Source: Planctomycetota bacterium
GTDB taxonomy: Bacteria > Planctomycetota > Phycisphaerae > Sedimentisphaerales > Anaerobacaceae
Reading direction: 5' to 3'
NCBI GenBank assembly: GCA_017885385.1
Contig: JAFNGF010000143.1
Span: forward strand, 9,884 to 45,175
Length of the DNA stretch: 35,292 nt
The translations under genes were made by a program, and so were the position numbers. The notes beneath the pieces were generated by a model, which was not told where the DNA came from, did no database searches, and saw only the letters and a program-made list of their open reading frames with translations. Shown in pieces: positions 2,375 through 26,432 of this stretch. Position 1 is the first letter of the stretch; every line of letters begins with the position of its first letter.

Positions 2375-2430
2375 GTCAATTTCTAACTGTCAATTTTCAA
2401 TTTACAATTGTCAATTGTCAATTTACAATT
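2375..2430. repeat. 8 tandem heptamers (GTCAATT TCTAACT GTCAATT TTCAATT TACAATT GTCAATT GTCAATT TACAATT)
   Basis: Read directly from the sequence. The array fills the divergent intergenic region between the small minus-strand ORF and hisF. On the minus strand it creates repeated TTGACA hexamers. Confidence 0.85.
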
Positions 2431-2473
2431 GCTTTCGGTCGGCGGATTCGACTCTATTACGGAGATAGGTCTT

Positions 2474-3410: not shown

Positions 3411-3459
3411 GATTTTCGATTTACGATTTTCAATCGGCAATCGCCAATCGTAAATCTCG
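3411..3459. repeat. 7 tandem heptamers (GATTTTC GATTTAC GATTTTC AATCGGC AATCGCC AATCGTA AATCTCG)
   Basis: Read directly from the sequence. The GATTTNC sub-unit recurs at 22367-22387. Confidence 0.85.
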
Positions 3460-4553: not shown

Positions 4554-7500
4554 TCAAGGCGAAACTAATACGGAATCGCGTCCTTCAATCAAAACTCCGC
4601 TCGTGGTGCTTCCAGTCAGGATGCCTTCGGTATCGCCAAGTTTGAATCCGCATTTAAACGTAAGGAATCCATACATTGCATCGGGCAATCCGTCGGCATT
4701 CATATCTCGAATGGTGGGCGCACGCACCGGTGCGGCTTCAGCTCCAGTCCGTCCAAATCGCACCGTTGATGAATTCAAGGTCGTTACATTGAAGCTGGCG
4801 CTGCCGAAAACCACAACGGAGATGGTGTAATTCTTGCTGAGGTACACCCTGTTCGGTGTCTGGTTGGGGTAGATGTCGATACCTATGGCCAGGAGCAGCC
4901 AGCCATCCTGGCAGGTCCAGGGAAGGTTGTCCTGGCCGCCACTGAAGACATAAGGACTATCGACAATGCGGTCATGGTTTCCATCCGGCGTCGTCCAGTC
5001 GCTCCAGAAATTACCGCCGATTGGCGCATCCAGGTTGAAGACGTTGCCGCTTCCGCCATCGACATGCGCCTGCACGTGATTACTGATAAAGTTGTTGTTG
5101 TAGATAGTATTGACGTTGGAATTGTTCAGTTGGATTCCAGCCCATGTGCTCGAGCTGCACGTGTTGTGTGATAAGGTGTTGTTATTAGATTCTCCAAGGG
5201 ATATTCCAGCGAATTCTAGATTAACCCTGTTGCCTGTTAGGGTATTGCCGGAAGAATTGTCCAGGTTGATTCCACTCCATGTGTTCAGTTCAGCAATGTT
5301 ATCAGTTAGGTTATGGTCTTGGGAATGGTAAAGGCTTATTCCATTGTCGTTGTTCGAGTTGCATGTGTTGCCTGTTAGGGTATTGTTACTGGATTCCCAA
5401 ATGGCAATTCCGTTGCCGTTGTTCAAGCTGCATGTGTTGTCTGTTAGGGTATTGCCGGTGGAGTTTTGCAGGTTGATTCCTTCGCCGTTCAGACTATTCG
5501 TGTTGCCTGTTAGGTTATTCTTTTCGGAATAGTAAAGTCTGATTCCAGCCCATGAGCTCGAGTTGCATGTGTTGTCTGTTAGGTTGTTACCAATGGAATA
5601 GTCAAGACATATTCCAACGTTGTGCGAATTATTCGTGTTGCCTGTTAGGGTACTTCCATTGGAATAGTAAAGGTTGATTCCAGCCCATGTGTTCAATTCA
5701 GAATTGTTTCCCTCTAAGGTATTGTTATCGCAAGCGTGAAGGTCAATTCCAACGTTGTTCGAATTATTCGTGTTGCCTATTAGGTTATTGTTGTTACTAG
5801 ATCCCCAAAGGTTGATTCCAGCGCCGTCGTTCGAGCTGCATGTGTTGGTTGTAATGGTATTACCGGTGGAATTTTCCAGCCAGATTCCAGCCCGTTTGTT
5901 CGATTCACAAATGTTGCCTGTTAGGGTATTGCCTGTGGAATTGTACAGGCCGATTCCATCATAGTCGGTGCTCGAATTACATGTGTTGTTATTTAAAGTA
6001 TTGCCGTTGGAGGAATCGTGTATAGCGATTCCACACCAAGCGTTCGATTCACAAACGTTGCCTGTGAGGGTATTGCCGGTGGAATTGTCAAGGCTGATTC
6101 CAACGCCGTTCGAATTATTCGTGTTGCCTGTTAGGTTGTTACCGGAAGAATGCCACAGGTTGATTCCAGGCCCTGTGTTCGATTCAGAATTGTTTCCTTC
6201 TAAGGTATTGTTTTCGGAATAGTCAAGGGCGATTCCACGGCCGTTTAAATTAGTTGTGTTGCCTGTTAGGGTATTGCCGGAAGAATTCCCAATGTAGATT
6301 CCATTCCCAAAACTCTGGATATTTAGATTTTTGACGGTGACTCCGGTCCTTGCGAAAAGTGCGACTCCGTCACCCGACCCTGGTCCGACTACCCTATGCC
6401 CAGCCCCATCCAGAGTCAGATTGTCTTGGTCTATTCGGATGGATCCAGTCACATCTTGGGTCAGAGTATATGTCCTTGTAACAGGGTCCCACGTCCCAAC
6501 TGAGGTATTTGTGGGGATGGAAATTGCGGTTGTTGTGAAGCTCCAGATATTGCCCGTATATGTCGTGGCCCCGTCAAATTCATGTATCCGCCAATAGTAG
6601 GTGGTGCCGTATGCAAGGACTTCGGGGGTATAGGTGGTTTCTATCTGAGTGCCCTTATCTGTACCGCCTGTACCGGAAACCACATCAGCTTGATTGGTGC
6701 CAAAGTAGATATGGTGTGAAATCGCACCACTTCCGGGCGTCCAGTTCAGGGCAATATCAGTCGGCACATCCGTCGCCCCATTACCGGGGCTTGGGTTGGC
6801 GGCCTTGAAGGTGATCCAGGGCGAAAGAAACGTCCCGGAGATAATTGCCCGCGTCGGGATAGTCGGACCTTGCCACGCAACAGCCAAGTTGTCGTCACCC
6901 CCGCCTTCTGAGTGTAGGGCCTCGATGTAATATATTCTACCAGCCTCCAAAGCGATCTCACTAGAGCGTTGTTCAGGCGTCCTATCGAAGTCGCGCGAAG
7001 GCGTCCAGCCCGGCACGCTGGCAATCTGAACCGCGTGGGCAGGATCCTCATCCGTGCTCAGCCACAGTTGGCTCTGGTCATCGCTGGCAATCCAGAAGGT
7101 GTAGTTGCCGGTCTGTGGCGGATATAGATAGCCACGAACATGCGTCCCGTAGTTGTCCCTCCAATTTATGGGGCCTTCAAAACTTGTCCGCAACTCACTG
7201 CGATCAGGGCTATCCGGGAATGTAGGAAGGTTGAAGAGCGTTTCCAGAGTCTCGTTTGTGCCCCAGAAGTACTCGAACAAAATGTTGCCTGCTCCCTGTC
7301 CTTGTGTTGTGAACCTCCAGATATTGCCCGTATATGTCGTGGCCCCGTCAAATTCATCTATCCGCCAATAGTAAGTTGTGCCGTATGAAAGGGTTCCTGG
7401 CGGATCGTAGCTGGTTCCAATCTGAGTGCCCATGTCCGTGCTGGGTGTACCGGCAGCGACATCGGCCTGATTGGTACCAAAGTAGATATGGTGAGAAATC

Positions 7501-8432
7501 GCACCAGTTCCCTGCGTCCAGCTAAGGACCGCATCTGTCGGCACATCTGTGGCCCCATTTGCCGGGCTCGGATTTGCCGCTCTATGGCTAGGGGCAGGGG
7601 GACTAAGCATGTAACCAACCGCATTGAGAAACATCTGTGCTCCATCTACGTACAAATCACACATACCCGCCGTTTGTGAGTTCTTGCCACCGCTCTCGCG
7701 AGAGCCGGTCAGGAACACCAGCCGATGACCGGCCAGCGTGTCCGTTCCTGCACCACCCGCGTGCGTCAATGTGGCCCCAGCCTGCCATTCGGCAATAACC
7801 ATGCCCCCAACAGGACCATTGCCCGCTGCTGAAATCGTGGCCAGGACTGTCCCATTGTTTACTGGATCGGTATTAATAGAGATGCCCGCCGCCGTGGTGC
7901 CGTCGGTGGGATACGTGGCGAGCCCGGCATAAGGATTGATCATGGTACCGTCGGTCAGCGGGATTCCCGCGAAGATCGGGTGGGTCGGGTCATTGACAGT
8001 CAGCGTGATGTTCCCGGTGATGTCCGGTATTGTATTGCCGGTGGTGTACCCCATGCGGTTGTACCGCAGGGTGTAACCATTCAAGATGATCATGGGAGCG
8101 GAAATGGTGTTCCACGCTGTGGCTGAAGCGTTCTGATAATGGTTACTGGCAGCCGAGCGACTGATGATCACCAAATCCGCTCCATTAAGAAATGCCGGAT
8201 CAGGAGTGGCAGTCGTGATATAGCGCGTTACGTCGTAGCCGTTGGCAGTGAGCAGGTCGGTGTACCCCTTATCGGGCGCCTCGGTGAATCCAGCACCGCT
8301 AGCACCGTCCGATGGCGCATCATCAGCTCCATGGAAGGAGACCCAGACGATTGTCGCCGCTTGTGCCGATGAGACAGCCGCCAAACCAAACGCAAGGAAC
8401 ATGACAATTAGGAAAAGCAGTCGTCTACACAT
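4554..8432 (-). CDS. giant (1292 aa) secreted protein: N-terminal alpha/beta domain, FN3/Ig-like module, PA14-like domain, second FN3/Ig-like module, about 20 parallel beta-helix repeats, C-terminal Ig-like domain
   Basis: ATG 8430-8432 has GGAGG about 7 nt upstream. The signal peptide is MCRRLLFLIVMFLAFGLAAVSSAQA. The PA14-like stretch contains GNYTFWIASDDQSQLWLS..LAVAWQGP (aa ~383-538). PbH1/NosD-type units NTLTGNTxNSNxxGIxL span aa ~665-1130. The frame is uninterrupted for 1292 codons. Confidence 0.9.
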   Translation of the reverse strand: MCRRLLFLIVMFLAFGLAAVSSAQAATIVWVSFHGADDAPSDGASGAGFTEAPDKGYTDLLTANGYDVTRYITTATPDPAFLNGADLVIISRSAASNHYQNASATAWNTISAPMIILNGYTLRYNRMGYTTGNTIPDITGNITLTVNDPTHPIFAGIPLTDGTMINPYAGLATYPTDGTTAAGISINTDPVNNGTVLATISAAGNGPVGGMVIAEWQAGATLTHAGGAGTDTLAGHRLVFLTGSRESGGKNSQTAGMCDLYVDGAQMFLNAVGYMLSPPAPSHRAANPSPANGATDVPTDAVLSWTQGTGAISHHIYFGTNQADVAAGTPSTDMGTQIGTSYDPPGTLSYGTTYYWRIDEFDGATTYTGNIWRFTTQGQGAGNILFEYFWGTNETLETLFNLPTFPDSPDRSELRTSFEGPINWRDNYGTHVRGYLYPPQTGNYTFWIASDDQSQLWLSTDEDPAHAVQIASVPGWTPSRDFDRTPEQRSSEIALEAGRIYYIEALHSEGGGDDNLAVAWQGPTIPTRAIISGTFLSPWITFKAANPSPGNGATDVPTDIALNWTPGSGAISHHIYFGTNQADVVSGTGGTDKGTQIETTYTPEVLAYGTTYYWRIHEFDGATTYTGNIWSFTTTAISIPTNTSVGTWDPVTRTYTLTQDVTGSIRIDQDNLTLDGAGHRVVGPGSGDGVALFARTGVTVKNLNIQSFGNGIYIGNSSGNTLTGNTTNLNGRGIALDYSENNTLEGNNSESNTGPGINLWHSSGNNLTGNTNNSNGVGISLDNSTGNTLTGNVCESNAWCGIAIHDSSNGNTLNNNTCNSSTDYDGIGLYNSTGNTLTGNICESNKRAGIWLENSTGNTITTNTCSSNDGAGINLWGSSNNNNLIGNTNNSNNVGIDLHACDNNTLEGNNSELNTWAGINLYYSNGSTLTGNTNNSHNVGICLDYSIGNNLTDNTCNSSSWAGIRLYYSEKNNLTGNTNSLNGEGINLQNSTGNTLTDNTCSLNNGNGIAIWESSNNTLTGNTCNSNNDNGISLYHSQDHNLTDNIAELNTWSGINLDNSSGNTLTGNRVNLEFAGISLGESNNNTLSHNTCSSSTWAGIQLNNSNVNTIYNNNFISNHVQAHVDGGSGNVFNLDAPIGGNFWSDWTTPDGNHDRIVDSPYVFSGGQDNLPWTCQDGWLLLAIGIDIYPNQTPNRVYLSKNYTISVVVFGSASFNVTTLNSSTVRFGRTGAEAAPVRAPTIRDMNADGLPDAMYGFLTFKCGFKLGDTEGILTGSTTSGVLIEGRDSVLVSP
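5043..6440 (-). repeat. about 20 degenerate ~66-nt coding repeats (parallel beta-helix coils)
   Basis: The core GTGTTGCCTGTTAGGGTATTGCC recurs with small variations near 5228, 5368, 5434, 5636, 5913, 6056 and 6256 on the plus strand. Confidence 0.8.
6528..6803 (-). repeat. coding duplicate R2 of the ANPSPxNGATDVPTD...YYWRIxEFDGATTYTGNIW module
   Basis: The module covers aa 544-635. The 43 nt at 6541-6583 are identical to 7315-7357, and 6585-6599 equals 7359-7373. The offset is exactly 774 nt (258 codons). Confidence 0.9.
7305..7580 (-). repeat. coding duplicate R1 of the same module
   Basis: The module covers aa 285-376. See R2 for the identity details. The two copies bracket the PA14-like domain. 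Confidence 0.9.
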
Positions 8433-9069: not shown

Positions 9070-9216
9070 AACAGATGACAGATGACAGAAGACAGACGAC
9101 AGAAGACAGAAGACGGAGGACAGAAGACAGATGACGGAAGACAGAGGACAGAGGACAGAGGACGGAAGACAGATGACGGAAGACGGAGGACAGAAGACAG
9201 AAGACAGAAGATAGAA
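9070..9216. repeat. 21 tandem heptamers, consensus GAC(A/G)GAN (plus strand about 6/7 purine)
   Basis: Counted unit by unit: AACAGAT GACAGAT GACAGAA GACAGAC GACAGAA GACAGAA GACGGAG GACAGAA GACAGAT GACGGAA GACAGAG x3 GACGGAA GACAGAT GACGGAA GACGGAG GACAGAA x3 GATAGAA. Confidence 0.95.
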
Positions 9217-9315
9217 TAGGGAAACCAGGGAACCAAGGTAACAGGGTGCAGGTGAGCAGGATAACAGGGAATCAGGATGCAGGAGATCAGCAGGCCAAGG
9301 AATCAGGATGCAGCC
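9217..9315. repeat. degenerate ~8-nt periodic purine-rich array phased on CAGG/AAGG
   Basis: The units read AACCAGGG AACCAAGG TAACAGGG TGCAGGTG AGCAGGAT AACAGGGA ATCAGGAT GCAGGAGA TCAGCAGG CCAAGGAA TCAGGATG. The array directly abuts the heptamer array. Confidence 0.6.
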
Positions 9316-21715: not shown

Positions 21716-22216
21716 CTAGTTGCCTATCGAGATGTAGCCGGTGACAGGCTCTACTCTAATCGTCTTGGTAACGCCCGCTGCTTGCAGGCTGATGACGCCG
21801 CTGTTCAAAGCAGTGTTATTACCGTTAATGGGGCTTCCGAGATAATCAAACTGGACCTCGCTGGTGGCGTCAAAATTTGCATCGAAAATATCAACTCTAT
21901 TTAGTCTGCGGTCGTTACGGAAATCTACGACGTAATTGAATCCTTTTTTTACCGGGTGCGGTATTACGTTGTCATTCTGATCCTTTATCTGGTAAGTCTC
22001 AGCAGCTTTATCAAAAACCACAGAAAAATTTTGGCCTCTGCTGATTGCCATACTTTTAGCGTATTCCAGGTCCGCTGCGACAATGTTTGCCGCGGATTCA
22101 ATCTGTATGCTTGCCGCCGACGACATCATAGGTACTACCATCATCCCTGCTATGGCCAGCAGCACTACCACAATAAGAATCTCAATAATCGTAAAGGCAC
22201 GGGCACAAAAAACCAT
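21716..22216 (-). CDS. GspH/FimT-like pseudopilin (prepilin-type N-terminal methylation domain)
   Basis: ATG 22214-22216 has GAGGAGG 11 nt upstream, whereas the track start at 22225 is GTG. The N-terminus is MVFCARA|FTIIEILIVVVLLAIAG with Glu at +5. Confidence 0.8.
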   Translation of the reverse strand: MVFCARAFTIIEILIVVVLLAIAGMMVVPMMSSAASIQIESAANIVAADLEYAKSMAISRGQNFSVVFDKAAETYQIKDQNDNVIPHPVKKGFNYVVDFRNDRRLNRVDIFDANFDATSEVQFDYLGSPINGNNTALNSGVISLQAAGVTKTIRVEPVTGYISIGN

Positions 22217-22250
22217 CTTACACACTGCCTCCTCTCAAATGACAAAAGGC

Positions 22251-22394
22251 CAAATACGAAACCCGAAGCATAAAATACGAAACAAATACAGATGACAAAA
22301 ATACAGAACTCGAAACAAGTCGAGCAGCGTCCTGAACATTCGGCGTTTGAAGCTCGAATTTGTTTCGGATTTCGATATTCGATATTCGAGTTTT
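22251..22394. repeat. composite A/T-rich short-period repeat block with dyad symmetry
   Basis: On the left, AAATACGAAAC occurs twice (22252, 22273) 21 nt apart, with AATACAGA variants nearby. On the right (22360-22394) are five heptamers: TTGTTTC GGATTTC GATATTC GATATTC GAGTTTT. GTTTCGGATTT is a 10/11 reverse complement of AAATACGAAAC. Confidence 0.75.
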
Positions 22395-22688
22395 TGCTTC
22401 TTGGCTCATTATGAACCCTACCTCCGTCTTCTTTTCGGCTCGTTTTAGCTGTGCCTTTACCTGCACGTTAGCCGGCTCGGACGAACCTGCCGGCACTGCC
22501 AACCCAGGATCCGCTGAAGTTAACAGAACATACACTCACTTTCGACTTACCGGCACAACTTCAGGCCGCACGTGCGGCGATACAAATGTCACATCCCATA
22601 CTTTATGCAGTTAAGGCCAACAAAATTGGCACAATCGTCAAGGCAACAGAGCAAGAAAAGTAGAGGCAAAACGCCGCCTTGAAGACGT

Positions 22689-22727
22689 GGCTGAATATTC
22701 AGCCCCACGTCTCACGTGGGGTTTTTT
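22689..22727 (+). repeat. copy (e) of the double-hairpin family, with a T-run on the plus strand
   Basis: GGCTGAATATTCAGCC (a perfect 16-nt palindrome, 22689-22704) overlaps CCCCACGT-CTC-ACGTGGGG (22703-22721), followed by TTTTTT (22722-22727). Confidence 0.65.
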
Positions 22728-22798
22728 CTTATTCGTCGCATACAAAGGCCGATAAGCAGCTTCTGCCTCGGCCACTCAAGAAAACCCATAAGCGCTTA

Positions 22799-24577
22799 TT
22801 AGTCTCTGCGGATACTTCTGAAAAACGCCCCGGCTGCCTGCCCCCACTTCTGTACCGCCCCTTGCTCGGACCAGGTGATGATAGCCGTCTTTGTCGGTGC
22901 GGCGGTAATAGCGGCATTGCTGCCGGACTCGTCGAATTTCCAGTGCGCTATCAGCCCGGGCAGTCCGTCAACGGGTGGATAGACCTCGTTCACATTCAAC
23001 GCCCGGTTGTAGATGCGCACGTCGTCGATCAAGCCGCCGTAGACGTAGCCTGGCGCAGGAGTCCTGTCAGTGGCAATGTTAAGATGTCCGTCGCCGAATC
23101 CTGGACTGTTAAGCCACACACCCGTGGTGCGAGGGATACCATCCAGATAAGAGGTCATTACGGCTCCACTTCGGACGATCCCAACATGGTGCCATGCACC
23201 TGCAAGCTCGCTGAGCAAAATCCCGGTGTCCCACGATTTAGGACTCGGCAGGTAATCCCGATGGTAAACAGTAAGTTTTTTGGGACTACCGGAATTGAAT
23301 TGGAGCGTCCAGTGGTTTGTCGATCCGCTGGGGTTGCATTTTGAGATTATACCCGCCCAGTCCTTCTGGGAAGAGGCGGGCTTTACCCAGACCGACAAAG
23401 TATAGTCATTGGCCACTTGGAGCTTGGTCAGCGAGTTAGGGGTCTGCACATAGTCGTCAACTCCGTCGAACTGCAGCGCCCCGCCTGTTCGACCACCTGT
23501 AGGCTGCCAGGTCGCGCCGTTGTACAGCACTGCAACATTGGCGCTGCTGGAGGAGTCTGCGGCGGTTTCAGCCAGTCCATCGTCTGTGAATAGGGCGCCA
23601 AGAACGGTCAAATTAGCACCGCCGGCCCCGAGCAGCGTACGTCCATACACGACAGCCAATCCGTTAATCTGTAGAGCGGCGGCGTTTTTTATCGTTAGCT
23701 CACCAGTCACGAGCAATGCGGGCATGTTTTTTGCCGCTACGATTATGTTTCTGTCTCCCTGGATTGTCAGATCGCCGACAACTACGAGCATACTCTCGAT
23801 TCTGACGTCGCCGGCCAACACCAAGTCGCTGCTGCGGTAGCACACCTGTACGGGGTTGCTATATGGCCCGAGCGTAACGCCGGAAAGACTGCTTGAGGTT
23901 ATGACCACCGTACTGTATCTTGAAGTAAAATCAGCGACCGTAATTCGAGGCCAGACCAGCGACAAATCTGTGGTTGCCTTATGCCGGCCGCCTATAGTTC
24001 CAGTCAACGCACCGGCAAATACATCACCGTTAATTGCACCCCTGTTTTCCAACGTGCCGTTACAATAGAGGTCGCCGTTGATTCTGACGCCGGACCAGAT
24101 AATCGCGGCGCTTCCGGTCCACAACGCTATACACGGGTCAAGGCGAAGGTCACCCGATAAGCTGCAACGACCTACTTCCTGGCCGGCCTTCATCCGGTAA
24201 GAGTTACAGTCTATGATGTAATTGCAGTAGTCAGTCGGGTCCGAGTCATCGCGAACCACTGCGACCTCGTAGTAATCCTCGCTTCCTGCTGCCAGCTGCT
24301 GCGCCGCAGCTCCGGTCCAGTATTCCGAAGCCACATCCTGCGGGTACAAAACCAGCCCTTTGGCGTGCTCCAAACCGGACTCAGCCAGGTAATCCATCTG
24401 CGTGCGCAGTATCATATTCTCGCCGCAAGCCAGCTCCACATCGCTTCGCGACATAAAGCCCAGCGACAAAATGGTTATGGCCATAATAACAAAGAGGACG
24501 ACAAGTAAAGCTGCCCCTCTGTCTGTATATCGTATATCGTATGTCGTATGTCGTAATTCAATCATTTGCTTAGTCAT
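22799..24577 (-). CDS. large GspK-like minor pseudopilin with a C-terminal LamG (Laminin_G_3-type) lectin-fold domain
   Basis: The N-terminus RGAALLVVLFVIMAITILSLGF..EL resembles GspK. The LamG domain spans aa 367-532 (nt 22982-23479): ALQFDGVDDYVQTP...TLSVWVKP...GGLIDDVRIYNRAL. The ATG overlaps the end of the upstream gene by 8 nt. Confidence 0.8.
   Translation of the reverse strand: MTKQMIELRHTTYDIRYTDRGAALLVVLFVIMAITILSLGFMSRSDVELACGENMILRTQMDYLAESGLEHAKGLVLYPQDVASEYWTGAAAQQLAAGSEDYYEVAVVRDDSDPTDYCNYIIDCNSYRMKAGQEVGRCSLSGDLRLDPCIALWTGSAAIIWSGVRINGDLYCNGTLENRGAINGDVFAGALTGTIGGRHKATTDLSLVWPRITVADFTSRYSTVVITSSSLSGVTLGPYSNPVQVCYRSSDLVLAGDVRIESMLVVVGDLTIQGDRNIIVAAKNMPALLVTGELTIKNAAALQINGLAVVYGRTLLGAGGANLTVLGALFTDDGLAETAADSSSSANVAVLYNGATWQPTGGRTGGALQFDGVDDYVQTPNSLTKLQVANDYTLSVWVKPASSQKDWAGIISKCNPSGSTNHWTLQFNSGSPKKLTVYHRDYLPSPKSWDTGILLSELAGAWHHVGIVRSGAVMTSYLDGIPRTTGVWLNSPGFGDGHLNIATDRTPAPGYVYGGLIDDVRIYNRALNVNEVYPPVDGLPGLIAHWKFDESGSNAAITAAPTKTAIITWSEQGAVQKWGQAAGAFFRSIRRD
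24525..24559. repeat. 5 tandem heptamers GTAT(A/G)TC (coding strand GAATTAC GACATAC GACATAC GATATAC GATATAC) inside codons 7-18 of the K-like gene
   Basis: Read directly from the sequence. The array translates to ..ELRHTTYDIRYT.. just before the hydrophobic segment. Confidence 0.9.
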
Positions 24578-25181
24578 CGTCGGTTACAATGCTCTGGCCG
24601 TCGGCGCTTAGCAGATTTCCCGCCCAGCCGCGAACGGCACTGTTTATCTGGTAGTGGTGCACAACGCCGTCCTCGGCAAGGTCAAACGAAATACTAACAA
24701 ATTTGGTCCGCGGCGGCGCAACATCAACCAGAAACTCTACGTTGCTGCACTGTGGTATCAGCGTCGCACGTGTCACGCTGTATCCGCTTGGTGATAGTGC
24801 TGCCACGTTGGCCAGCAGCACCACAGACGTATCGGACGCCGGAAATTCGCAAAGCCGCAGATAGTTTTTGCCCGTCCCTCTTTCGACATACACCAGCTCG
24901 TTGACGTTAATCTGTCCGTCGCTGTTGTCGTCAGCCTGCCAGACGGCCAATTCGCCGCCCGGCGTGCCGCAGATCAACCTGCACTGCCGAATCAGTTCCG
25001 AAATCCTGAGCGTGGCAAAACGGACTTCCGCCTGCTTGCGACTTGTATCGTCAGTGGCATCGGTTGCCCTGCCCAGAGCGAAAGCAAGCGTGGCCACAGT
25101 CGTTAGAATCAGACTGCTAACAACCAAAGCCACCAGCAGCTCGACCAGCGTAAAGCCGTGCTCGTACTTGGTATCTCGCAT
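24570..25181 (-). CDS. GspJ/PilW-like minor pseudopilin
   Basis: The N-terminus MRDTKYEHG|FTLVELLVALVVSSLILTTVATLAF is a prepilin-type motif with Glu at +5. Confidence 0.8.
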   Translation of the reverse strand: MRDTKYEHGFTLVELLVALVVSSLILTTVATLAFALGRATDATDDTSRKQAEVRFATLRISELIRQCRLICGTPGGELAVWQADDNSDGQINVNELVYVERGTGKNYLRLCEFPASDTSVVLLANVAALSPSGYSVTRATLIPQCSNVEFLVDVAPPRTKFVSISFDLAEDGVVHHYQINSAVRGWAGNLLSADGQSIVTDDD

Positions 25182-25198
25182 CTCGTATCTCGTATTTC
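25164..25198. repeat. 5 tandem heptamers (coding strand GAAATAC GAGATAC GAGATGC GAGATAC CAAGTAC) spanning the start codon of the J-like gene
   Basis: The minus strand reads TAG-GAAATACGAGATACGAGATGCGAGATACCAAGTAC. TAG is the stop of the I-like gene, and the ATG of the J-like gene lies in unit 3. Confidence 0.9.
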
Positions 25199-25696
25199 CT
25201 ATTTACTTATGAGCCGATTTATGATCGCGATCGGTCTACCGCTGTAATGCACCCGCACCGTGACGCGAATGAAATTCGCCTGTCCGGCTCCACTTTGCTG
25301 CGGCACATAAACAGACTCACAGGTTGCGTTCCTGCTGAAGTTGGCGTAAGCCGGGTCCGTAAATATAGTCCCTGCGGAGTCTTTCAACTGCCCTTGCGGC
25401 TCGGAGTAACCATTATAGTTAGCGACTATTTGCTCAAACGGAGTATTTACAATTTGCTCGATTAAATCACCTGCCAGCTTGGCGCCCAGCGTTCGGCGAG
25501 TACCTTCAGCTCGTATCTTTGCGCCGTCGGCAAAAGGAAGCAGGACACCAGCCGCCGCAATACCCAATACCACGGTGGCCATCATCGCCTCAGCGAGCGT
25601 AAAACCACAGCGTGCACAACGGTAGGATGGGCACCGCCCACCAATTTGATAGCAGCGTGCAGTGCACACCCTACCTCTCTTTCTGCTAATAATCAT
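25199..25696 (-). CDS. GspI/PilV-like minor pseudopilin (start uncertain)
   Basis: ...RCG|FTLAEAMMATVVLGIAAAGVLLPF is a prepilin-type motif with Glu at +5. ATG 25694-25696 gives an unusually long, Cys/Arg-rich 31-aa leader. A GTG nine codons further in is also possible. The track start at 25804 overlaps the upstream gene by 119 nt. Confidence 0.7.
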   Translation of the reverse strand: MIISRKRGRVCTARCYQIGGRCPSYRCARCGFTLAEAMMATVVLGIAAAGVLLPFADGAKIRAEGTRRTLGAKLAGDLIEQIVNTPFEQIVANYNGYSEPQGQLKDSAGTIFTDPAYANFSRNATCESVYVPQQSGAGQANFIRVTVRVHYSGRPIAIINRLISK

Positions 25697-26165
25697 AGTA
25701 TCGTTTTCCGTTATTGTCGGTTCCGCTGGTGTCGGCTCGTATTTCCGCCGTGGCTCCCTTACATATCCAGCCGTGACTATCGTCGGCGTTGGGCGGGAAA
25801 TCATCCCCGTCTGCGAGCATCTGGATCGTAGTCAGATTGTTGAAGGGATTTACCGGAATCTTTTGCATATATGGGCCGCGCTCGAACCCGGCAGTCCCTA
25901 CCGCAGCAGTTTGGCCGCTGGCGTTGCTCGACATTGTAGCCTGCTCAATAAAGGCCTGCTCCGTAGGTCCGGGAGCAACTTCCAGATGCTGGCTTTTATA
26001 GACCAGAATGAAGTTGCGAAGCAACTGCAAATCGGTTGCCAGAGCACTCGCCTTGGCCGACGTTGTACTATTGCCAACGGTTGCGATGACGACCGCGGCC
26101 AGGATTCCGAGCAAGACCACCACCACGAGAATCTCGACAAGCGTAAAAGCTCTTGCCTTGTTCAT
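25686..26165 (-). CDS. GspG-like pseudopilin / type IV pilin, paralogue 2
   Basis: ATG 26163-26165 gives MNKARA|FTLVEILVVVVLLGILAAVVIATV. The track start at 26249 reads through a palindromic repeat. Confidence 0.85.
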   Translation of the reverse strand: MNKARAFTLVEILVVVVLLGILAAVVIATVGNSTTSAKASALATDLQLLRNFILVYKSQHLEVAPGPTEQAFIEQATMSSNASGQTAAVGTAGFERGPYMQKIPVNPFNNLTTIQMLADGDDFPPNADDSHGWICKGATAEIRADTSGTDNNGKRYYDY

Positions 26166-26195: not shown

Positions 26196-26302
26196 GTCAT
26201 TCCCTCGCAAGGTTGTCATCCCTGCCTTGGAGCAGGGACGGGAATCCACAACGCGATAGATTTCTGGATTCCTGCCTCCGCAGGAATGACAAGCCTGTCA
26301 TT
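26196..26302. repeat. nested palindromic element built on GTCATTCC / GGAATGAC between the two G-like pilin genes
   Basis: The outer pair is GTCATTCC (26196-26203) with GGAATGAC (26283-26290). Inner hairpins are CCCTGC-CTTGGA-GCAGGG (26220-26237), GGAATCCA-16 nt-TGGATTCC (26241-26272) and TTCCTGC-CTCC-GCAGGAA (26269-26286). The last two share the bases TTCC and are therefore mutually exclusive. Confidence 0.7.
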
Positions 26303-26432
26303 AAAAAGGCTGACCTGCTTTCGGCAAAAGCCTTAGCACGATCAGCCTATTTGTCTATTCCATCATTCTGGCCAGCCTAAGCTGGCGATCTGTCGTGGCA
26401 AGACCCACCAGACTTCCGCTGCCACTACACTC

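What the first reader, a model, noticed from the sequence alone, without database searches (positions are those of the whole stretch)
24525..25198. Matching 5-unit heptamer arrays (coding-strand consensus GAnATAC) sit exactly on two consecutive minor-pilin gene junctions
At the I-like/J-like junction the minus strand reads TAG GAAATAC GAGATAC GAGATGC GAGATAC CAAGTAC. The upstream stop abuts unit 1 and the J-like ATG lies inside unit 3 (25164-25198). At the J-like/K-like junction, 18 nt after the K-like ATG, it reads GAATTAC GACATAC GACATAC GATATAC GATATAC (24525-24559). That stretch encodes ..LRHTTYDIRYT.. of the leader. Two independent arrays share the unit length, the copy number and the consensus, and both lie at translation-initiation regions of adjacent cistrons. 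This is unlikely to be chance. One possible role is a phased binding site for an RNA- or DNA-binding regulator. Another is an unstructured initiation region that sets minor-pilin stoichiometry. Because 7 is not a multiple of 3, slipped-strand copy-number change could also switch the K-like/LamG tip protein on and off. The imperfect units argue against frequent slippage.
Basis: seen in the sequence. Interest (0 to 1): 0.65.

Follow-up and report, generated by a model that had tools for sequence, protein, structure and literature searches.

The report
Heptamer repeat arrays at pilin gene starts
The two 7-base repeat arrays are real and not chance, but they belong to a lineage-wide class of heptanucleotide simple repeats that settle in the spacers and cleaved leader-peptide codons of pilin-like genes in Sedimentisphaerales. 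They show no sign of being an on/off switch.

Summary
Dimers of GAnATAC give 7 hits against 0.04 expected, and every hit lies in these two arrays. They are not a private pair. Period 7 is the only tandem-repeat period in the window, and it dominates 0.93 Mb of orthologous loci (68 arrays against at most 12 for any other period from 4 to 13).

In non-redundant orthologous operons, a heptamer array sits in the K-like leader in 20 of 79 loci, with 13 different units. One sits at the J-like start in 9 of 53 loci. The arrays are translated in frame as part of the leader. Three arrays carry a variant unit exactly where a perfect unit would read as a stop codon, and leader lengths in relatives differ by 7 residues, which is 3 units.

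The K-like array did not change copy number in strains up to 3-4% diverged. The I/J array has one strain variant lacking one unit in the untranslated spacer, with the ATG kept.

Best reading: these are slippage-born heptanucleotide repeats tolerated in unconstrained spacer and leader DNA, with at most a tuning effect on translation initiation. Phase variation is not supported. A regulator-binding role is not excluded. This is a new member of a known kind.

The parts
25164..25198 (-). I/J junction heptamer array: GAAATAC GAGATAC GAGATGC GAGATAC CAAGTAC. Units 1-2 and the start of unit 3 form the 17-nt untranslated I-J spacer. The J-like ATG is inside unit 3. Units 3-5 encode MRDTKY of the J-like leader.
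   Evidence: The J-like leader consensus in relatives is MRDTRYEKG|FTLVE, encoded by CGAGATA CGAGATA CGAG. One strain variant lacks 25180-25186, which removes one unit and keeps the ATG.
24525..24559 (-). K-like leader heptamer array: GAATTAC GACATAC GACATAC GATATAC GATATAC. It is translated in frame as ELRHTTYDIRYT, upstream of the conserved RG|AALLVVLF segment.
   Evidence: Homologous leaders carry arrays with 13 other units. No copy-number variation was seen.
22371..22389 (-). Third array of the same class (TCGAATA x2.7) in the K/H intergenic region. It lies near the start of a 64-codon upstream ORF that follows a GGAGGT Shine-Dalgarno-like site.
   Evidence: The same array is in L090, and other units occupy the same intergenic region in L092 and L093.
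25199..25804 (-). I-like pseudopilin gene (N_methyl motif). The likely true start is the ATG of MIISRKRG.., which overlaps the G2-like stop. Its stop TAG abuts the I/J array.
24570..25181 (-). J-like pseudopilin gene, 203 aa, leader MRDTKYEHG|FTLVELL.
22799..24577 (-). K-like minor pseudopilin with a C-terminal LamG (Laminin_G_3) domain. Its ATG overlaps the J-like stop. Public gene callers start it 4 codons later (MIELRH..). Either start lies upstream of the array.
21716..22225 (-). GspH-like pseudopilin gene, downstream of the K/H intergenic array.
2375..2431 (+). Same class of period-7 array (TCAATTT/ACAATTG, 21-nt super-period). It lies in the divergent spacer 45-100 nt upstream of hisF (ATG near 2475). 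This shows the class is not confined to pilin genes.
9071..9216 (+). Longest array of the class: 21 copies of ACAGAAG/ACGGAGG, in the 1-kb spacer after the T2SS-F gene at the end of the secretion/pilus cluster.
3411..3450 (+). Two short adjacent period-7 arrays (GATTTWC x2.7 and CAATCGS x2.9) downstream of hisF.

Best explanation
The two arrays are heptanucleotide simple-sequence repeats of one unit family (TACGNNA on the coding strand). They belong to a class of period-7 tandem repeats that is characteristic of this lineage (Sedimentisphaerales, Phycisphaerae, Planctomycetota). Heptamer over-representation is already known in other bacteria, such as cyanobacteria, Beggiatoaceae and Xanthomonas.

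The arrays arise and turn over by slippage, and apparently by copying between sites. They persist where sequence constraint is lowest. Those places are short intercistronic spacers and the codons of the N-terminal leader, which prepilin peptidase is expected to cut off pseudopilins.

At the I/J junction the array forms the 17-nt spacer plus the first codons of the J-like leader. In the K-like gene it forms codons 7-18 of the leader. The ribosome reads through the arrays in all three unit phases, and selection keeps only the frame open.

Any functional effect is most likely a passive or 'tuning' one. The arrays would set the stop-to-start and Shine-Dalgarno-to-AUG distance in 7-nt steps, supply an AT-rich initiation region with little structure, and set leader length.

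Shown: class membership, positional enrichment, in-frame translation, and slow copy-number change. Inferred: slippage as the generator, cleavage of the leader, and any tuning effect.
For: Period 7 is the only repeat period in the window: 6 arrays against 0.18 expected, while other periods stay near zero. It also dominates 934 kb of orthologous loci, with 68 arrays against at most 12 for periods 4-13.

Nearly all arrays are intergenic or within the first 170 nt or so of an ORF. None lies in the interior of a credible gene.

At the orthologous K-like leader, 20 of 79 non-redundant loci carry an array, with 13 different units. That pattern fits turnover rather than a conserved motif.

Translation through the arrays is supported in two ways. 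In all 3 arrays whose perfect unit would give an in-frame stop, a variant unit sits at exactly that position (L023, L098, L123). Homologue leaders also differ by 7-residue (21-nt, 3-unit) indels, as in P0003/P0029 against P0034 and P0026 against P0012.

The only single-unit indel seen lies on the untranslated side of the I/J array and keeps the ATG.

The leader region is generally permissive. REP-like hairpins are also inserted and translated there, in the window's I-like leader and in L011, L103 and L108.

The window's K-like array sequence recurs in the G2-like leader of L092. Copies with unrelated flanks exist in the same metagenomes.

Literature: heptameric SSRs are over-represented in many bacteria, and a polymerase-slippage explanation has been proposed (PMC4692102).
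Against: Arrays are about 5-fold more frequent at the K-like and J-like starts than in other non-coding DNA of the same contigs (p = 5e-9 and 2e-4). They are 4.5-fold more frequent at operon gene starts than at other gene starts (p = 1e-6). Pure neutrality does not predict this unless leaders are unusually permissive.

All 11 clusters of the TACGNNA family in about 2 Mb of fetched loci lie on the gene-sense strand.

The GAGATAC unit at the J-like start is shared by loci whose K-like proteins are only 50-60% identical.

Why the period is 7 remains unexplained.

No transcript or protein data could be obtained.
Confidence: 0.6

Rival explanations
1. The arrays are selected cis-regulatory elements. 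They would be phased binding sites on the mRNA, or on DNA, for a multi-domain or multimeric nucleic-acid-binding protein. Candidates are ribosomal protein S1, cold-shock or CsrA-like proteins, as proposed for TAACTGA repeats, or a heptad-binding repressor. Such a factor would coordinate translation or stoichiometry of the minor pseudopilins.
For: Arrays are enriched at operon junctions. All 11 TACGNNA clusters are in sense orientation. A limited set of units recurs across genomes: AAAATTC 7 times, ACGAGAT 6 times, ATTATTG 6 times. The I-J spacer has only weak Shine-Dalgarno-like sequence. There are published analogues in which heptamer repeats lie next to start codons, with reporter effects in Nostoc (PMC4679880; bioRxiv 10.1101/2022.06.06.494920).
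Against: There are 13 unrelated units at the orthologous K-like position, and about three quarters of orthologues have no array there. Position relative to the ATG varies from -100 to +55. The arrays are not consistently unstructured. No Rfam family matches. No candidate binder was identified.
Confidence: 0.2
2. Phase-variable contingency locus. Slippage by one unit within the K-like leader (7 nt, not a multiple of 3) would switch the LamG-bearing K-like protein off and on, as in the neuO heptanucleotide tract of E. coli K1.
For: The tract lies inside the 5' coding region, and its unit length is not divisible by 3. Leader length differs by whole sets of 3 units among relatives. One single-unit indel exists at the neighbouring I/J array.
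Against: The K-like array is identical in 9 contigs. It has no gaps in strains with 34-43 substitutions per 1.1 kb. No frameshifted allele was seen in 79 non-redundant loci. The arrays are short (4-5 units) and imperfect. The one indel seen does not change a reading frame. Caveat: only assembled contigs were available, not raw reads, so rare variants would be missed.
Confidence: 0.06
3. Peptide-level selection. The 7-residue periodic leader (for example RDTRYEI) would be the selected object, for instance for recognition by the prepilin peptidase, and the DNA periodicity would be a by-product.
For: The J-like leader consensus MxxTxYxxG recurs in many relatives, some without a clear DNA repeat. 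T..Y-type peptides recur in K-like and G2-like leaders.
Against: The periodicity is 7 nt, not 21 nt, and it continues into the untranslated I-J spacer. The same class occurs in purely non-coding DNA: hisF upstream, the K/H spacer, and 9071-9216. K-like leaders encoded by arrays are chemically unrelated, for example KFKIQNS, IINNQLS and RHTTYDI. Codon third positions in the J-like leader are no more fixed than in flanking codons.
Confidence: 0.07

Closest known systems
TAACTGA heptamer direct repeats of marine Beggiatoaceae, some cyanobacteria and Bacteroidetes (MacGregor 2015, PMC4679880)
   Same: Sets of 2-6 tandem heptamers, many per genome. [quoted passage not shown] Some overlap the end of the upstream ORF or sit at the periphery of proteins. 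Function is unknown, and a translational role has been proposed.
   Different: That family has a single fixed unit (TAACTGA) with stops in all three forward frames, so it is never translated in the forward orientation. Here there are many unit families, the arrays are translated inside leader peptides, and the host is a different phylum (Planctomycetota).
Cyanobacterial heptanucleotide repeats: STRR of Calothrix/Nostoc, and GGGGAYT and TTCAAAA repeats of Nostoc PCC 7120 (PMC4692102; bioRxiv 10.1101/2022.06.06.494920)
   Same: Lineage-specific over-representation of period-7 tandem repeats. They are dispersed in intergenic DNA near start codons or promoters. Length and sequence vary between close relatives. 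TTCAAAA, a Nostoc unit, is also the commonest K-like leader unit here.
   Different: The cyanobacterial arrays are described as intergenic, and some are G-rich and form quadruplexes. Here the arrays are AT-rich (70% A+T) and often lie inside coding leaders.
neuO heptanucleotide VNTR (AAGACTC)n of E. coli K1 prophage CUS-3 (PMC13001214; further details are from my own recollection of Deszo et al. 2005)
   Same: A heptanucleotide tandem repeat inside the 5' coding region. It is read in all three phases as a 7-residue periodic N-terminal extension, and the frame is kept only for certain copy numbers.
   Different: The neuO tract is long, perfect and hypervariable between isolates, and it acts as an on/off switch. 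Here the tracts are short (4-5 units), imperfect, and stable across strains.
Promoter heptad repeats bound by regulators: the TTTTGAT repeats of the Vibrio cholerae ctxAB promoter (bioRxiv 10.1101/2021.05.14.444153) and the 7-bp hmw1A repeats of Haemophilus influenzae (PMC8262952)
   Same: Tandem 7-bp units upstream of a gene, where copy number tunes expression.
   Different: Those act at the level of DNA and transcription upstream of the promoter or in the 5' UTR. The two arrays here lie inside an operon, on and after start codons. No binder is known.

Membership tests
Heptanucleotide simple-sequence repeat (SSR/VNTR; STRR-like class) | Head-to-tail tandem copies of a 7-nt unit, more frequent than chance | tested here: met
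   TRF gives 4.4 and 3.6 copies. There are 6 arrays against 0.18 expected in the window. The pattern test gives 7 hits against 0.04 expected.
Heptanucleotide simple-sequence repeat (SSR/VNTR; STRR-like class) | Lineage-wide excess of period 7 over other periods | tested here: met
   68 period-7 arrays against at most 12 for any period from 4 to 13, in 934 kb of orthologous loci.
Heptanucleotide simple-sequence repeat (SSR/VNTR; STRR-like class) | Copy number differs by whole units between strains or relatives | tested here: met
   A 7-nt deletion in the I/J array of the X16 strain. 21-nt (7-residue) leader indels among K-like homologues. No change in the K-like array among close strains.
Heptanucleotide simple-sequence repeat (SSR/VNTR; STRR-like class) | The same unit family is dispersed at several loci | tested here: met
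   TACGNNA arrays occur at J-like, K-like and G2-like starts and two other sites. Copies with unrelated flanks exist in the metagenomes. Arrays like the one at 9071-9216 recruit 130-245 contigs per run.
Phase-variable contingency locus | Repeat tract inside an ORF or promoter, with unit length not divisible by 3 | tested here: met
   The K-like array lies at codons 7-18 and has a 7-nt unit.
Phase-variable contingency locus | Copy-number heterogeneity within or between closely related populations, giving frameshifted (off) alleles | tested here: not met
   No indel in the K-like array in 9 contigs or in strains 3-4% diverged. No out-of-frame K-like leader in 79 loci. Only contigs were available, not raw reads, so rare variants are not excluded.
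Phase-variable contingency locus | Long, near-perfect tract that supports high slippage rates | tested here: not met
   The tracts have 4-5 units with 88-95% matches.
TAACTGA-type start-codon-proximal heptamer repeats | Unit TAACTGA | tested here: not met
   The units here are GAnATAC and others. No TAACTGA array appears in the window's TRF or period scans.
TAACTGA-type start-codon-proximal heptamer repeats | Forward orientation directly upstream of, or overlapping, the ribosome-binding region, with no canonical Shine-Dalgarno site | tested here: inconclusive
   The I/J array covers -17 to +17 around the ATG, and only AGGA/GAGA-type weak matches are present. The K-like array is downstream of the ATG. 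Other arrays lie 45-150 nt upstream.
Operator or RNA site for a heptad-binding protein | A conserved unit sequence recognised by one protein, and a demonstrated binder | not testable with these tools
   Units differ between orthologous sites, which argues against a single specific binder.

The most novel reading that the evidence does not exclude
Heptamer arrays in Sedimentisphaerales could be a functional, sequence-flexible 'initiation cassette' system. Portable tandem heptamers, some carrying their own ATG, would be copied between gene starts of the type II secretion/pilus cluster. They would be read by a periodic RNA-binding factor or by the ribosome itself, to set the relative synthesis of the minor pseudopilins. 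This would be a bacterial post-transcriptional regulon defined by 7-nt periodicity rather than by a motif.
Probability: 0.15. Interest if true: 0.6.

Novelty: new member of a known kind. Interest (0 to 1): 0.35.

Why it matters
Heptamer tandem repeats are over-represented in several bacterial phyla, and their origin and role have stayed unexplained for decades. This locus adds Planctomycetota (Sedimentisphaerales) to that list. It also offers an unusually clean natural experiment: the same junctions of one conserved operon carry arrays with many different units across about 80 related genomes. Some arrays are translated as cleavable leader peptides, and others lie in spacers. That allows simple tests of whether the 7-nt periodicity itself, rather than a sequence motif, affects translation initiation or coupling. 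For annotation it has a practical use. Odd 7-residue periodic N-termini of pseudopilins in this clade are repeat-encoded leaders, not errors, and start codons can lie inside the repeat.

Tried and rejected
1. Chance or assembly artefact. Rejected by the shuffle tests and by identical arrays in 9 independent contigs.

2. Read-level heterogeneity. Only Logan contigs were available for all 24 DNA runs. Laying 12 runs gave one 7-nt variant at the I/J array and none at the K-like array. Rare variants cannot be excluded.

3. RNA evidence. No RNA run holds the region, so transcript ends and processing could not be examined.

4. Known RNA families. There were no Rfam matches in the whole window.

5. 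'Unstructured region' as a general property. Of 49 arrays, 57% have MFE 0 on the sense strand, but a subset (AAATTCG, AATATCG, GTAATTG, AGCGTAC) folds strongly. The mean does not differ from shuffles (Wilcoxon p = 0.62).

6. Nucleotide-level versus peptide-level constraint at the J-like leader. Codon third-position diversity there is no lower than in flanking codons, so the test was uninformative.

7. Literature on heptamer repeats in Planctomycetes or Sedimentisphaerales. Nothing was found.

8. My crude regex for prepilin motifs outside the operon found none, probably because it was too narrow. I therefore did not test whether arrays track prepilin-type genes genome-wide.

9. Gene calls in the fetched loci are my own greedy longest-ORF calls. 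Positions relative to 'starts' are therefore approximate.
Full report
**Observation.** On the minus strand the window reads TAG GAAATAC GAGATAC GAGATGC GAGATAC CAAGTAC at 25201..25164, and GAATTAC GACATAC GACATAC GATATAC GATATAC at 24559..24525.
- The I-like stop abuts the first array, and the J-like ATG (25181) lies in its third unit.
- The second array begins 18 nt after the K-like ATG (24577). That ATG overlaps the J-like stop (ATGACTAA). The array encodes ELRHTTYDIRYT.
- Tandem Repeats Finder reports 3.6 and 4.4 copies.
- GANATACGANATAC with at most 1 mismatch hits only these two arrays, 7 times against 0.04 expected.
- Nine independent contigs from different samples carry both arrays unchanged.

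**Context.** The arrays lie in a type II secretion / type IV pilus-like cluster. In order it encodes two G-like pseudopilins, I-like, J-like, K-like with a LamG domain, GspH-like, PilM, PilN, PilO, an unassigned protein, secretin, histidine kinase, response regulator, an HD-domain protein, T2SS-E ATPase and T2SS-F. Homologues of the K-like protein are named Sedimentisphaerales, Phycisphaerae or Planctomycetota by their sources.

**They are not a private pair.** A period scan of the window finds tandem arrays only at period 7. There are 6 at score 9 or more against 0.18 expected, while other periods stay near zero. The other arrays are:
- 2375-2431, upstream of hisF;
- 3411-3450;
- 9071-9216, with 21 copies;
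- 22371-22389, in the K/H spacer.

I fetched 16 orthologous loci from genomes and 80 from metagenomes. In 934 kb of these, period 7 gives 68 arrays against at most 12 for any period from 4 to 13. Almost all arrays are intergenic or within the first 170 nt or so of an ORF.

**Positional pattern across relatives.** I anchored loci on the conserved RGAALLVV segment of the K-like protein. In 20 of 79 non-redundant loci an array lies in the 120 nt before the anchor. About 4 would be expected from the density in other non-coding DNA of the same contigs (p = 5e-9). At the J-like start, 9 of 53 loci have an array against about 2 expected. Operon gene starts carry arrays 4.5-fold more often than other gene starts (41/391 against 12/477, p = 1e-6).

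The units at the K-like position are very diverse, with 13 canonical types, among them TACGACA, AAATTCA, TTCTAAA, AATATCG, TACGCAA, AATAGTC and AAATTCG. About three quarters of orthologues have a short, non-repetitive Lys/Arg-rich leader instead.

At the J-like start many relatives share the leader MRDTRYEKG|FTLVE. Its coding sequence, CGAGATA CGAGATA CGAG, is itself a two-unit heptamer repeat. In the window, L018, L098 and L011 this core is extended by further units, in the window into the untranslated spacer.

**The arrays are translated.** Protein N-termini of K-like homologues show 7-residue periodic peptides such as KFLNSKFKILNSK, IINNQLSIIN and ETRNSKLETRN. Relatives differ by 7-residue indels, which is 3 units. 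In all three K-like leader arrays whose perfect unit would create an in-frame stop, a variant unit sits exactly at that position: TAA to AAA in L098, TAA to TTA in L023, and TAG to TGG in L123. The leader region also accepts other insertions that are read through, such as REP-like hairpins in the window's I-like leader and in L011, L103 and L108. This fits a segment whose sequence matters little because it is removed. Cleavage at G|F or G|A by prepilin peptidase is inferred from the N_methyl motif, not shown.

**Dynamics.** Only assembled contigs were available for public runs.
- Strains with 34-43 substitutions over 1.1 kb have no gap in either array.
- One strain (run X16) lacks 25180-25186. 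That removes one unit on the untranslated side and gives TAG GAAATAC GAG ATG. The ATG and the frame are kept, and the I-stop to J-start spacer shrinks from 17 to 10 nt.
- On longer time scales turnover is fast. At 94% K-like protein identity the K-like array is unchanged (L090). At 85% it is gone (L091). At 80% it is replaced by AAATTCA or TTCAAAA arrays (L093, L092).
- In L092 the window's K-like array sequence (ACGACAT x2, ACGATAT x2 and more) sits instead in the G2-like leader, MNNDIRHTIYDIRHTSRDSA|FTLVEIL.
- Near-identical 32-33-nt copies of both arrays occur in other contigs with unrelated flanks. One includes the ATG and runs into a different ORF.

Arrays therefore seem to be copied between sites as well as to slip.

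- Phase variation: not supported. The K-like tract is stable, no out-of-frame alleles were seen, and the tracts are short and imperfect. Raw reads were not available, so rare variants remain possible.
- Unstructured initiation region: both arrays have MFE 0.0 on the sense strand. Over 49 arrays, however, there is no general deficit of structure (p = 0.62), and some units are strongly self-complementary.
- Phased binding site: in favour are the junction enrichment, the sense orientation of all 11 TACGNNA clusters, and recurring unit families. Against are the unit diversity at one orthologous site, the variable offset from the ATG, and the absence of arrays in most orthologues.

No Rfam family matches and no RNA data exist.

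**Comparison with what is known.**
- Heptameric SSRs are reported as over-represented in many bacterial genomes, and polymerase slippage has been proposed as the cause. Xanthomonas GGGAATC repeats and Nostoc repeats vary in length between close relatives (PMC4692102).
- TAACTGA repeats in Beggiatoaceae, cyanobacteria and Bacteroidetes lie just upstream of start codons without a Shine-Dalgarno site. S1, Csp or CsrA have been proposed as binders (PMC4679880).
- In Nostoc, (TTCAAAA)3-type repeats lie near start codons and affect reporter expression (bioRxiv 10.1101/2022.06.06.494920).
- neuO carries a translated heptanucleotide VNTR that phase-varies (PMC13001214).

I found no report for Planctomycetes or Sedimentisphaerales. 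The present arrays are a new member of this known kind. Their distinguishing trait is that they are often read through as pseudopilin leader peptides.

**Verdict.** The arrays are real, non-random and related to each other. They are best explained as lineage-typical heptanucleotide repeats tolerated in spacer and leader DNA, with at most a tuning effect on initiation or coupling (confidence 0.6). A selected binding-site role remains possible (0.2). An on/off switch is unlikely (0.06), and so is peptide-level selection (0.07).

Noticed in passing
window 9071-9216 (and 9232-9313): A 21-copy heptamer array (ACAGAAG/ACGGAGG) followed by a 31-nt repeat of 2.6 copies, in the 1-kb spacer after the T2SS-F gene. 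In four sediment metagenomes, 130-245 contigs per run match it at 90% or more, with depth 30-80 times that of the flanks. This unit family is therefore very abundant in these communities. An alternative allele skips 9105-9297. The same unit (GAAGACA) lies upstream of G2-like genes in L092 and L123.
   Followed up: partly
window 2375-2431: A heptamer array with a 21-nt super-period, in the divergent spacer between hisF (+, ATG near 2475) and a small cysteine-containing ORF of about 60 aa on the minus strand (ATG near 2352). On the minus strand the array contains two TTGACA hexamers, so it may create -35-like boxes.
   Followed up: no
window 25600-25700 (minus strand): The I-like leader (MIISRKRGRVCTARCYQIGGRCPSYRCARCG|FTLAE) contains an inserted REP-like element, GGTAGGGTGTGCACTGCAC. 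The same element occurs next to the K-like leader in L123. It appears to be translated as part of the leader.
   Followed up: partly
window 26200-26330 (minus strand): The G1/G2 intergenic region holds hairpin repeats of the type ATTCCTGCGGAGGCAGGAAT ... GGAATGACA. These recur at pilin junctions of other loci (L147, L152, L165). They look like a second family of small dispersed repeats in this lineage.
   Followed up: no
window 22218-22412 (minus strand): A strong GGAGGT site and an ATG open a 64-codon ORF (MSQEAKTRISNIEIRNKF...). Its start carries the TCGAATA array, and it ends at the ATG of the GspH-like gene in another frame. In distant relatives the same ACGGAGGTAGGGT site directly precedes the H-like start. 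This may be a remnant or an upstream ORF of the H-like gene.
   Followed up: partly
L092 7975-8020: A relative (79-87% identical K-like protein) carries the window's K-like array sequence in the leader of its G2-like pseudopilin. Its own K-like leader has a TTCAAAA array. This suggests arrays are copied between leaders within the operon.
   Followed up: yes
window 22700-22730 (minus strand): A GC-rich hairpin, CCCCACGT GAGA CGTGGGG, lies just after the K-like stop. It may be a terminator or a REP element, which would make the H-like and downstream genes a separate transcription unit.
   Followed up: no
window 5305-5689: 66-69-nt tandem repeats (2-3 copies) inside the 1292-aa gene at 4554-8432. 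They correspond to its NxxTGNT-type beta-helix repeats and are ordinary coding repeats.
   Followed up: no
L098 1244-1279: The J-like start array contains two ATG-bearing units 14 nt apart, in different frames. Only the second is in frame with GFTL.
   Followed up: no
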